From Phytoplasma sp. (GTDB taxonomy: Bacteria > Bacillota_I > Bacilli_A > Acholeplasmatales > Acholeplasmataceae), in assembly GCF_035187685.1 (NCBI RefSeq), contig NZ_CP131022.1:290217-354216 (forward strand): a stretch of DNA of 64,000 nt, written 5' to 3'. Position numbers and translations under genes: made by a program. The notes beneath the pieces were generated by a model that saw only the letters and a list, made by a program, of their open reading frames with translations, searched no databases and was not told where the DNA came from. Shown here one piece after another: positions 57,304 through 58,005 of the stretch (position 1 is the first letter of the stretch; each line of letters starts with the position of its first letter).

Positions 57304-58005
57304 ATGGTTAAAACAAGTTTTGTTAATGCGAGACATAAAAAACGTAAAAAAATATTAAAATTAGCCAAAGGTTATTTCGGTTCTAAAAGCAATCTTTATA
57401 AAACAGCTAATGAACAAGTAATGCGTTCATTACAATATGCTTATAGAGATAGAAGACAAAAAAAGAGAAATTTTAGAAAATTGTGGATCACAAGAATTAA
57501 CGCTGCTTGTTTACAAAATAATATGCGTTATTCTAAATTTATACATGGTCTTTTATTGGCTAATATAGAAATTAATCGTAAAATGTTGTCTGATATGGCG
57601 TTTAATGAGCCTCATATGTTTGTTAATTATATAAATTTATCGCAAAAAGCTTTAAAACAAAAAGAAATAGAAAAACAAGAAAAACAAGAAAAACAAGAAA
57701 AACAAGAAAAACAAGAAAAACAAGAAAAACAAGAAAAACAAGAAAAACAAGAAAAACAAGAAAAACAAGAAAAACAAGAAAAACAAGAAAAACAAGAAAA
57801 ACAAGAAAAACAAGAAAAACAAGAAAAACAAGAAAAACAAGAAAAACAAGAAAAACAAGAAAAACAAGAAGAAATGAAAGATAAAGAATTAAATAGCAAG
57901 TTAGTACCAGAATTAAGACAATTAGCGAAAAAAAATAAAATTCATAATTTTTCTAAATTAAAAAAATCTGAATTGATAGAATTGTTAAAAAAATTAAATT
58001 TTTGA
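57304..58005 (+). CDS. rplT: 50S ribosomal protein L20 with a 114-aa C-terminal extension ((EKQ)22 linker plus a Rho_N/SAP-like tail)
   Basis: Residues 1 to about 119 are canonical L20 ([44 protein letters not shown]). The ORF then continues without a stop through the repeat to [31 protein letters not shown]. Confidence 0.85.
57670..57867 (+). repeat. Coding tandem repeat, 9-bp unit GAAAAACAA x 22 perfect copies
   Basis: Counted directly. 198 nt, in frame within rplT. Confidence 0.95.

What the first reader, a model, noticed from the sequence alone, without database searches (positions are those of the whole stretch)
57304..58005. Ribosomal protein L20 fused to an (EKQ)22 spacer and a Rho_N/SAP-like helix-extended-helix tail
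A normal L20 ends near residue 119. Here the reading frame continues through 22 perfect copies of GAAAAACAA (57670-57867). It then ends in [39 protein letters not shown]. The ELRxLAKxxxIxxxSKLKKxELIxxL pattern of this tail is that of the N-terminal domain of Rho and of SAP/HeH nucleic-acid-binding modules. That would place a flexible charged tether, and a possible DNA/RNA-binding module, on a core large-subunit assembly protein that is also the autoregulator of its own operon. The repeat is perfect and its unit is a multiple of 3, so it could vary in copy number by slippage without breaking the frame. I do not know of a described L20 with this architecture.
Basis: partly seen in the sequence, partly recalled or inferred. 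Interest (0 to 1): 0.72.

Follow-up and report, generated by a model that had tools for sequence, protein, structure and literature searches.

The report
Phytoplasma L20 with Rho_N-type tail
This is a real ribosomal protein L20 carrying a repeat spacer and a small Rho_N/SAP-like nucleic-acid-binding tail, but the same L20-spacer-tail design is already catalogued and is standard in phytoplasmas and their relatives; only the perfect (EKQ)22 spacer is peculiar to this genome.

Summary
ORF 57304-58005 (+), 233 aa, lies in an infC-rpmI-rplT operon. It has an L20 core (aa 1-118), 22 perfect GAAAAACAA units (57670-57867) and a 45-aa tail. The domain call is also right. The tail alone passes Pfam's Rho_N threshold (37.6 bits against 24.9). 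AlphaFold2 gives a helix-extended loop-helix, and its best PDB matches are the Rho N-terminal domain and the FAN1 SAP domain.

The novelty claim fails. NCBIfam holds a curated equivalog model, NF011109/PRK14537 "50S ribosomal protein L20/unknown domain fusion protein", and it matches end to end (256 bits, cut-off 187). L20+Rho_N occurs in about 20 named phytoplasma taxa, Acholeplasmataceae, other Mycoplasmatota and gut metagenomes. Across relatives the tail is conserved (47% mean pairwise identity, dN/dS about 0.25). The linker is not (19% identity, 16-149 aa) and often carries its own in-frame tandem repeats.

The EKQ array looks like a lineage-specific slippage expansion of a single EKQ codon triplet still present in Ca. 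P. fraxini. An independent short-read assembly confirms both junctions but not the copy number. The function of the tail is untested. It is most likely a tethered accessory nucleic-acid-binding module on the 50S surface, in a phylum that lacks Rho.

The parts
56477..57046 (+). infC (IF3), first gene of the operon
   Evidence: ORF. The identical gene in L013 carries IF3_N and IF3_C.
57081..57269 (+). rpmI (L35)
   Evidence: ORF. Exact match to a Ribosomal_L35p gene in L013.
57288..57293 (+). Shine-Dalgarno-like AGAAGG, 10 nt upstream of the rplT ATG
   Evidence: Read directly from the sequence. Not tested further.
57304..58005 (+). rplT: the whole bL20-linker-HeH fusion ORF (233 aa plus TGA stop)
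   Evidence: NF011109 '50S ribosomal protein L20/unknown domain fusion protein' at 256.4 bits (cut-off 187), aa 1-230 against profile positions 1-225 of 232.
57304..57657 (+). bL20 core, aa 1-118
   Evidence: Pfam Ribosomal_L20 aa 8-107, E=1.1e-44. TIGR01032 aa 3-111. 107/118 identical to Ca. P. fraxini.
57670..57867 (+). Perfect tandem array (GAAAAACAA)x22 = (EKQ)22, aa 123-188; variable linker
   Evidence: AF2 places it in one helix, aa 103-197. A single GAAAAGCAA sits at the homologous site in P. fraxini.
57886..57993 (+). Rho_N-type helix-extended loop-helix module, aa 195-230 (helices 201-210 and 221-230, basic loop ending in SKLKK)
   Evidence: Pfam Rho_N at 37.6 bits against GA 24.9. 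AF2 pLDDT 80-88. Foldseek: Rho NTD TMq 0.77 and FAN1 SAP TMq 0.80, both rmsd 0.9 A. L204 and K221 invariant, A208 and L228 nearly invariant.

Best explanation
This is the rplT gene of a phytoplasma related to, but distinct from, 'Ca. P. fraxini'. It is an ordinary member of an already catalogued family in which bL20 is followed by a poorly conserved charged linker and a conserved C-terminal helix-extended loop-helix domain of the Rho_N/SAP/HeH clan. Shown: the three-part architecture, its wide distribution, purifying selection on the tail, and free evolution of the linker. Inferred: (1) The (EKQ)22 array arose in this lineage by replication slippage from a single GAA-AAR-CAA triplet. It is tolerated because the unit is a multiple of three and the linker's sequence and length are under little constraint. 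(2) The bL20 core assembles into the 50S subunit as usual, and its last helix emerges at the solvent surface. The linker projects the HeH module away from the surface. Here the linker is predicted to be a helix about 100-140 A long; in relatives it is probably disordered. (3) The module uses its basic interhelical loop (KLKK, equivalent to the R(M/L)RK block of the Rho N-terminal domain) as a weak accessory nucleic-acid contact. The most likely ligand is RNA (rRNA during assembly or on the mature subunit, or mRNA). It does not confer Rho activity, because the OB-fold RNA-binding domain and the ATPase domain are absent. The identity and architecture part carries about 0.95 confidence; the functional part about 0.4.
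For: Architecture: Pfam L20 plus Rho_N; NF011109 end-to-end above its cut-off. Distribution: PF00453+PF07498 on nearly all of the top 120 homologues, including about 20 named phytoplasma taxa, Acholeplasmataceae MAGs and Mycoplasmatota bacterium zrk1, and Hadza gut contigs with the same infC-rpmI-rplT operon. NF011109 passes its cut-off for 9 of 10 diverse relatives. Selection: mean pairwise identity is core 0.65, tail 0.47, linker 0.19, with linker length 17-149 aa. Tail dN/dS is 0.27 and 0.24, against 0.12 and 0.25 for the core. L204 and K221 are invariant. Fold: AF2 helix-extended loop-helix; best PDB matches are the Rho NTD and the FAN1 SAP domain at rmsd 0.9 A. Slippage: 51-bp x8.9 array in the P. 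ziziphi linker; 42- and 99-bp arrays in P. fraxini; 1, 3 and 5 copies of a 17-aa unit in P. rubi, P. vitis and P0004, and one 10-aa unit of difference between P0039 and P0063; the seed triplet in P. fraxini; other long perfect arrays in the same window at non-coding sites. Nucleic-acid binding by this clan: the Rho NHB is positively charged and aids RNA loading, and it belongs to HeH clan CL0306 (PMC11347177). SAP domains bind DNA through the interhelical loop (PMC9399289).
Against: No binding, localisation or deletion data exist for any member. NCBI itself calls the tail an 'unknown domain'. The Foldseek E-values are not significant for a 45-residue query (best 0.65). The dN/dS estimates rest on only 38 codons. 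The position of the bL20 C-terminus on the 50S surface comes from general knowledge of ribosome structures and was not measured here. One complete genome (P. ziziphi CP091835) has the tail out of frame. If that is real, the tail can be lost.
Confidence: 0.6

Rival explanations
1. The HeH tail is a DNA- or transcription-complex tether. It would anchor 50S subunits to the very A/T-rich chromosome, or to RNA polymerase/NusA or nascent RNA. This would give a ribosome-borne coupling or termination-related function in a phylum that has lost Rho.
For: All 100 Mycoplasmatota species analysed lack Rho (PMC11347177), and Rho is not identified in phytoplasmas (PMC3322544). SAP domains bind DNA, and PIAS1 SAP prefers A/T-rich DNA (PMC9399289). 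The window is 21.6% GC. The FAN1 SAP domain is as good a structural match as Rho. A long linker suits reaching off the ribosome.
Against: There is no direct evidence. The module lacks every catalytic or RNA-translocating part of Rho. Of the 20 scanned rows spelled out in the listing, the shortest linker is 17 aa; across all 120 homologues one search gives values down to 16 aa, which suggests reach is not essential. From my own knowledge, the Mycoplasma pneumoniae bL20 in PDB entry 7OOD is tail-less, as its 127-aa length would fit; if so, loss of Rho does not by itself require the tail.
Confidence: 0.15
2. The (EKQ)22 array is itself the selected feature. It would act as a rigid single alpha-helix 'ruler' that sets the reach of the tail, or as a hypervariable contingency locus whose copy number tunes function between isolates.
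For: AF2 predicts a continuous helix at aa 103-197, with pLDDT about 98 over its first half. Every E has a K at i+4, giving 22 such pairs. The array is perfect, so it is recent or actively homogenised.
Against: Linkers of relatives share neither length, composition nor predicted structure. The array has 45 same-charge i+3 pairs, unlike classic ER/K helices. pLDDT falls to about 60 towards the array's end. AF2 tends to draw helices for charged low-complexity sequence. The same 64-kb window holds other long perfect arrays of 13-, 10- and 11-bp units at non-coding sites, which points to neutral slippage. An in-frame unit cannot switch expression on and off.
Confidence: 0.1
3. The copy number, or the fusion itself, is an assembly artefact.
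For: A 198-bp perfect repeat cannot be resolved by short reads. The independent short-read assembly breaks at both edges of the array. Homopolymer errors evidently can break such genes, as in P. ziziphi.
Against: Both flanks are reproduced with 0 mismatches and are in frame with the 9-bp unit, so the fusion holds at any copy number. More than 100 homologues have the same core-linker-tail order. Only the number 22 is open to doubt.
Confidence: 0.1
4. The tail is a decaying, functionless remnant of an old fusion.
For: It is out of frame in the P. ziziphi CP091835 assembly. Some homologues lack a precomputed Rho_N call.
Against: The tail is conserved from phytoplasmas to gut-metagenome lineages, with invariant L204 and K221 and dN/dS of about 0.25. 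It is duplicated in P0048. Missing Pfam calls are explained by low-complexity masking: the full-length query here also loses its Rho_N hit, while the isolated tail scores 37.6 bits. The P. ziziphi tail is still intact as an ORF.
Confidence: 0.05

Closest known systems
NCBIfam NF011109 / PRK14537 '50S ribosomal protein L20/unknown domain fusion protein'
   Same: Same three-part protein. The window protein scores 256 bits (cut-off 187) over aa 1-230 against profile positions 1-225 of 232. Phytoplasma, Acholeplasmataceae and other Mycoplasmatota relatives also pass.
   Different: The linker here is a perfect (EKQ)22 array not seen in any retrieved relative. The nearest protein, from Ca. P. fraxini, is 65% identical overall. 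The family's tail is still labelled 'unknown domain', although Pfam recognises it as Rho_N.
N-terminal helix bundle of transcription termination factor Rho (Pfam Rho_N, PF07498)
   Same: The sequence profile match is above the gathering score. There is a direct phmmer alignment to Rho 8hsj_A residues 17-51. The fold match has TMq 0.77 and rmsd 0.9 A. The basic KLKK block aligns with the Rho R(M/L)RK block.
   Different: It sits at the C-terminus of a ribosomal protein rather than the N-terminus of a helicase. There is no OB-fold primary RNA-binding domain and no RecA ATPase. The host phylum has no Rho at all.
Eukaryotic SAP / LEM / HeH DNA-binding modules (e.g. FAN1, Ku70, PIAS1, SDE2)
   Same: Same clan and same helix-extended loop-helix geometry: FAN1 SAP has TMq 0.79-0.80 and rmsd 0.9 A. 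Like Ku70 SAP, it hangs on a linker at a protein terminus (PMC9399289).
   Different: The SAP (20.3 bits against 23.9) and HeH (13.3 against 28.9) profiles fall below their gathering scores. The ligand is unknown.
NCBIfam NF051450 '50S ribosomal protein L20, sunset domain variant'
   Same: Another curated bL20 with a C-terminal extension. This shows that bL20 tolerates C-terminal add-ons.
   Different: Only the L20 core of the window protein matches it (116.5 bits against a cut-off of 375). It is a different tail.
Multi-copy Rho_N/SAP repeat proteins from metagenomes (P0122-P0210)
   Same: They are the closest sequence relatives of the tail outside L20. Of 89, 88 carry Rho_N, usually in 2-8 copies, so the module is mobile and promiscuous.
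   Different: None of the families listed for these 89 proteins is a ribosomal protein (only the first 25 of 50 were shown). Partner domains include RlmM_FDX, HNH, helicase and kinase domains.
Charged single alpha-helix (ER/K) linkers
   Same: Long predicted uninterrupted helix and a regular E-to-K i+4 pattern.
   Different: One third of the residues are Q. There are many same-charge i+3 pairs. The property is not conserved in relatives.

Membership tests
bL20 (Pfam PF00453 / TIGR01032) | Profile score above the curated cut-off over the whole L20 domain | tested here: met
   PF00453 at 151.3 bits (cut-off 30.8), aa 8-107. TIGR01032 at 149.2 bits (cut-off 65.65).
bL20 (Pfam PF00453 / TIGR01032) | Genomic context infC-rpmI-rplT | tested here: met
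   ORFs 56477-57046, 57081-57269 and 57304-58005 on the + strand. Same order in L013, L014, L015 and L010.
NF011109 / PRK14537 L20/unknown domain fusion protein | Equivalog model score above the cut-off with end-to-end coverage (core + linker + tail) | tested here: met
   256.4 bits against 187; aa 1-230 on profile positions 1-225 of 232. The tail alone hits profile positions 186-225.
Rho_N domain (Pfam PF07498, clan HeH CL0306) | Profile score above the gathering threshold | tested here: met
   37.6 bits against 24.9, E=2.1e-9, for the isolated 45-aa tail. The hit is lost in the full-length scan, probably through masking by the EKQ low-complexity run.
Rho_N domain (Pfam PF07498, clan HeH CL0306) | Helix-extended loop-helix fold superposable on the Rho N-terminal bundle | tested here: inconclusive
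   AF2 helices 201-210 and 221-230 with pLDDT 80-88. Top Foldseek hit is Rho 9ff7_A: prob 0.97, TMq 0.77, rmsd 0.9 A. However E=0.65, because the query is only 45 aa, and this is a predicted model, not a solved one.
Rho_N domain (Pfam PF07498, clan HeH CL0306) | Binds nucleic acid | not testable with these tools
   Needs EMSA or NMR with the recombinant tail.
Transcription termination factor Rho | OB-fold primary RNA-binding domain plus RecA-type ATPase domain | tested here: not met
   No Rho_RNA_bind or ATPase family appears among the Pfam hits. The NCBIfam rho models match only positions 1-40 at 20 bits against cut-offs of 315-509. This is not a Rho.
SAP (PF02037) / HeH-LEM (PF12949) | Profile score above the gathering threshold | tested here: not met
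   SAP 20.3 against 23.9; HeH 13.3 against 28.9. Same clan, but Rho_N is the best-fitting family.
Charged single alpha-helix (SAH / ER-K) linker | Stable monomeric helix with dense i to i+4 opposite-charge pairs | tested here: inconclusive
   AF2 helix aa 103-197. There are 22 E-to-K i+4 pairs but 45 same-charge i+3 pairs. Stability needs circular dichroism.
Simple-sequence contingency (phase-variable) locus | Copy number differs between isolates and switches expression | not testable with these tools
   No second isolate resolves the array: there is no exact L20 match in the collection and the short-read contigs break at it. A 9-bp unit cannot shift the frame, so an on/off switch is excluded by the sequence itself.

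The most novel reading that the evidence does not exclude
In Acholeplasmatales/phytoplasmas and allied lineages, all of which lack Rho, the conserved HeH tail on bL20 would be a ribosome-borne tether. It would bind the A/T-rich chromosome, nascent RNA or the transcription complex, physically linking 50S subunits to sites of transcription. The evolvable repeat linker, here a roughly 100-A (EKQ)22 helix, would set its reach.
Probability: 0.12. Interest if true: 0.7.

Novelty: new member of a known kind. Interest (0 to 1): 0.3.

Why it matters
As a discovery it matters little. The fusion is already a curated family and is the normal form of bL20 in this clade, so the window adds one more member with an unusual linker. 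Three points are still useful. First, NCBI's 'unknown domain' can be named: it is a Rho_N/HeH-clan module that is conserved and under purifying selection, in a phylum with no Rho. That makes it a well-defined but untested target for ribosome biology, and cultivable Acholeplasmataceae would allow the experiments if they carry the fusion. Second, low-complexity linkers mask the domain from full-length Pfam scans, which explains inconsistent annotation among phytoplasma genomes. Third, the perfect 9-bp array, together with other perfect arrays nearby, could serve as a strain-typing (VNTR) marker. It is also a known hazard for short-read assembly and for homopolymer errors, as the split P. ziziphi gene shows.

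Tried and rejected
1. The genome-contig scan with the full protein was wasted.
2. The word-index homologue search with the 40-aa tail found no candidate. It was replaced by the exhaustive representative search.
3. That search returned mostly multi-copy Rho_N/SAP proteins rather than L20 fusions. A single diverged copy scores below the 34.5 bits needed for E<=0.001 in 1.8 billion sequences. It shows the module is promiscuous, not how widely the L20 fusion is distributed.
4. The listing of cluster members gave no organism names for the short 169-192-aa forms, so their taxonomy beyond 'human gut metagenome' is unresolved.
5. The Rfam search for an L20 leader or any structured RNA at 55000-59500 found nothing at E<=1. 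The whole window holds only one tRNA at gathering thresholds.
6. Literature searches for the fusion found no paper describing it. The query was spoiled because the underscore in Rho_N is ignored.
7. The minus-strand ORFs across the repeat (57627-57899 and 57652-57867) were rejected as mechanical by-products of the repeat.
8. I considered that UGA might encode Trp, as in Mycoplasma. Read-through would add only three residues before a TAA, so the conclusion does not change.

Full report
**1. The observation**

The window (21.6% GC) contains an ATG-to-TGA ORF at 57304-58005 on the + strand, encoding 233 aa. It follows infC (56477-57046) and rpmI (57081-57269). An AGAAGG Shine-Dalgarno-like motif lies 10 nt upstream of the start.

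GAAAAACAA is present as exactly 22 perfect copies at 57670-57867, and the perfect period-9 run is 57669-57870 (TRF score 406). The protein divides into:
- an L20 core, aa 1-118;
- a short KQKEI junction;
- (EKQ)22 at aa 123-188;
- a 45-aa tail, [45 protein letters not shown].

Ordinary bL20 does end at about 115-120 residues. The TIGR01032 profile has 114 positions. Of the 60 listed PDB bL20 chains, 59 are 112-149 aa and one mitoribosomal chain is 170 aa.

**2. Independent support and its limit**

The exact L20 protein is not in the gene-position collection, but its neighbours are. An identical L35 lies on a Logan contig of run SRR30832043 (L013). That contig equals window 54081-57698 with no mismatch and stops three units into the array. 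An identical downstream membrane protein lies on another contig of the same run (L016). That contig equals window 57841-60628 with no mismatch and begins three units before the array's end.

This is how a k-mer assembler behaves at a long perfect repeat. Both junctions are confirmed, and because the unit is 9 bp the tail is in frame at any copy number. The count of 22 rests on this assembly only. I cannot tell whether that run is the source of the window.

**3. What the parts are**

The Pfam Ribosomal_L20 domain covers aa 8-107 (E=1.1e-44).

Scanned on its own, the tail hits Pfam Rho_N at E=2.1e-9 and 37.6 bits, above the gathering score of 24.9. SAP (20.3 against 23.9) and HeH/LEM (13.3 against 28.9) fall below theirs. 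In the full-length scan the Rho_N hit disappears, probably because the EKQ run triggers composition correction. The same effect would explain why a few relatives with repetitive linkers carry only PF00453 in precomputed annotation (P0002-P0004).

A phmmer search of the PDB aligns the tail to Rho residues 17-51 (8hsj_A, E=0.041).

AlphaFold2 on a 41-sequence alignment (mean pLDDT 86) gives one uninterrupted helix from residue 103 to 197. This is the last L20 helix running through the whole EKQ array. pLDDT is about 98 in the first half and falls to about 60 near residues 170-190. The helix is followed by helix 201-210, an extended loop and helix 221-230.

A tail-only model (pLDDT 84) finds its best PDB matches in the Rho N-terminal domain (9ff7_A: prob 0.97, TMq 0.77, rmsd 0.9 A) and the SAP domain of FAN1 (TMq 0.79-0.80, rmsd 0.9 A). 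The E-values (0.65 or worse) are not significant for so short a query.

**4. It is already a catalogued family**

NCBIfam contains an equivalog model, NF011109 (PRK14537.1), "50S ribosomal protein L20/unknown domain fusion protein". The window protein scores 256.4 bits (cut-off 187) over aa 1-230 against profile positions 1-225 of 232. The tail alone maps to profile positions 186-225.

A search of 5.8 billion proteins shows the PF00453+PF07498 pair on nearly all of the best 120 hits. These include:
- Ca. Phytoplasma fraxini, luffae, pruni, rubi, sacchari, oryzae, pini, palmae and australiense, plus many unnamed strains. P. vitis, P. stylosanthis and P. meliae carry the tail too (P. vitis and P. 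meliae; P. stylosanthis), although only PF00453 is precomputed for them;
- Acholeplasmataceae MAGs;
- 'Mycoplasmatota bacterium zrk1';
- many metagenomic proteins of 169-305 aa.

A 172-aa form from Hadza gut metagenomes sits in the same infC-rpmI-rplT operon. NF011109 passes its cut-off for 9 of 10 diverse relatives tested, and the tenth misses by 4 bits.

I found no paper that discusses the fusion. In the one phytoplasma paper that uses rplT, it serves only as a qPCR reference gene (PMC3984173).

**5. Which parts evolve and how**

In a 41-sequence alignment the mean pairwise identity is 0.65 for the core, 0.47 for the tail and 0.19 for the linker. Linker length ranges from 17 to 149 residues (across all 120 homologues it is 16-149, with a charged fraction of 0.2-0.7).

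In the tail, L204 and K221 are invariant and A208 and L228 nearly so. K221 lies in the KLKK block that aligns with KRMKK of Rho. This is the R(M/L)RK block noted as conserved in Rho N-terminal domains (PMC11347177).

Tail dN/dS against P. fraxini and P. ziziphi is 0.27 and 0.24. The core gives 0.12 and 0.25 (only 38 codons for the tail, so this is indicative). One relative (P0048) has two tail modules in tandem. The tail is therefore maintained by selection, and the linker is not.

**6. Origin of the (EKQ)22 array**

Linker tandem repeats recur independently in this family, always in units divisible by three:
- 51 bp x 8.9 in P. ziziphi;
- 42- and 99-bp units in P. fraxini;
- a 17-aa unit present 1, 3 and 5 times in P. 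rubi, P. vitis and P0004;
- a 10-aa unit that accounts for the whole length difference between P0039 and P0063.

At the position where the window's array starts, P. fraxini reads GAA GTA GAA AAG CAA AAT CAA, that is E V E K Q N Q. This is a single EKQ triplet, the plausible seed.

The same 64-kb window has other long perfect arrays at sites with no ORF: 13 bp x 27.7 at 63598-63957, 10 bp x 10.9 at 24906-25014 and 11 bp x 4.9 at 32958-33011. Their units are not multiples of three. The simplest reading is a slippage-prone genome in which only frame-preserving arrays survive inside genes, and a linker that tolerates them.

**7. How it most likely works**

*Shown:* the core is a normal bL20; the tail is a conserved HeH module; the linker is unconstrained.

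*From established knowledge, not tested here:* the bL20 N-terminal extension is buried in 23S rRNA. Its C-terminal helical domain lies on the solvent side of the 50S subunit, so a C-terminal extension would point outward.

*Inferred:*
- The linker presents the HeH module at a distance. For this protein that is about 100 A if the 66 EKQ residues are helical, or up to about 240 A if extended.
- The module's basic loop makes a low-affinity nucleic-acid contact. The comparisons are the positively charged Rho NHB, which assists RNA loading, and SAP domains, which bind DNA through the interhelical loop. Ku70 SAP similarly hangs on a disordered linker.
- I favour RNA as the ligand (rRNA during assembly or on the mature particle, or mRNA), because the carrier is an early-assembly rRNA-binding protein and because linkers as short as 16-17 aa suffice in relatives.

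It cannot act as Rho: there is no OB-fold RNA-binding domain or ATPase. Rho is absent from phytoplasmas (PMC3322544) and from all 100 Mycoplasmatota species analysed (PMC11347177). The module is therefore not borrowed from a resident rho gene. It belongs to a promiscuous pool of Rho_N/SAP repeats found on many unrelated proteins. It occurs only once in this window.

**8. Rivals**

- **DNA or transcription-complex tether.** It is attractive given the A/T-rich genome and the absence of Rho, but it has no direct support.
- **The EKQ helix as a selected rigid ruler or contingency locus.** The diversity of linkers in relatives argues against it. So do the 45 same-charge i+3 pairs and the neutral-looking arrays nearby.
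- **Assembly artefact.** This can affect only the copy number.
- **Decaying tail.** Its conservation argues against this. The split gene in P. ziziphi CP091835 is caused by single-A losses in homopolymers of one repeat copy. That may be sequencing error, and the tail ORF there is still intact.

**9. Verdict**

The novelty claim is not supported. This is a new member of a known, curated, widespread family (about 80% DNA identity to the P. fraxini locus) whose only special feature is a perfect (EKQ)22 linker. The family's function remains experimentally untouched, and that is the one real open question here.

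Noticed in passing
window 63598-63957: Perfect tandem array of a 13-bp unit (TTTATCAAACATA) x27.7, 100% identity, with no ORF of 30 aa or more across it. It is the highest-scoring repeat in the window (TRF score 720). Function unknown; a candidate VNTR marker.
   Followed up: partly
window 24906-25014 and 32958-33011: Two further perfect arrays: a 10-bp unit ATTTATTTTT x10.9 between divergent ORFs 23878-24873(-) and 25222-25737(+), and an 11-bp unit x4.9. 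The first sits where promoters of the two genes would be, so copy number could alter their spacing.
   Followed up: partly
window 54965-55927 (-): A 320-aa IS3-type transposase ORF (HTH_21 + rve in the identical L013 gene) lies directly upstream of infC. A transposase of the same type occupies the same position in Ca. P. fraxini (L015) and Ca. P. ziziphi (L014), so the insertion appears old or the site is recurrent.
   Followed up: partly
L014 1501-2510 (Ca. P. ziziphi CP091835.1): rplT is called as a 185-aa L20 plus a separate 40-aa Rho_N ORF in another frame. The break is caused by single-A deletions in homopolymers within copy 4 of a 51-bp x8.9 linker array. This is either a real loss of the tail or a long-read homopolymer error.
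   Followed up: partly
window 55928-56476: About 550 bp without a long ORF lie between the transposase and infC. No L20_leader or any other Rfam family is detected there at E<=1, so bL20 autoregulation of the operon, known in E. coli and B. subtilis, has no recognisable element here.
   Followed up: partly
P0048 (305 aa, JGI metagenome): A bL20 homologue with two consecutive Rho_N-type modules after the linker, showing that the tail can be duplicated.
   Followed up: no
window 57304-58002 (Pfam scan behaviour): The Rho_N hit (37.6 bits for the isolated tail) vanishes when the full-length protein is scanned, apparently through masking by the EKQ low-complexity run. The same effect probably explains 'PF00453 only' annotations for relatives with repetitive linkers (P0002-P0004).
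   Followed up: partly
P0122-P0210 (representative library hits to the tail): Many metagenomic proteins carry 2-8 tandem copies of closely similar Rho_N/SAP modules. Seven of the 89 also match the ferredoxin-like domain of the 23S rRNA methyltransferase RlmM, a second link between this module and large-subunit rRNA.
   Followed up: no
window 58026-58628 (+): A 200-aa multi-pass hydrophobic ORF lies immediately downstream of rplT (GGAG 10 nt before its ATG). It has no Pfam hit on record and is conserved at the same position in P. fraxini (199 aa) and P. ziziphi (206 aa). It is followed by rpmH, rnpA and yidC.
   Followed up: no
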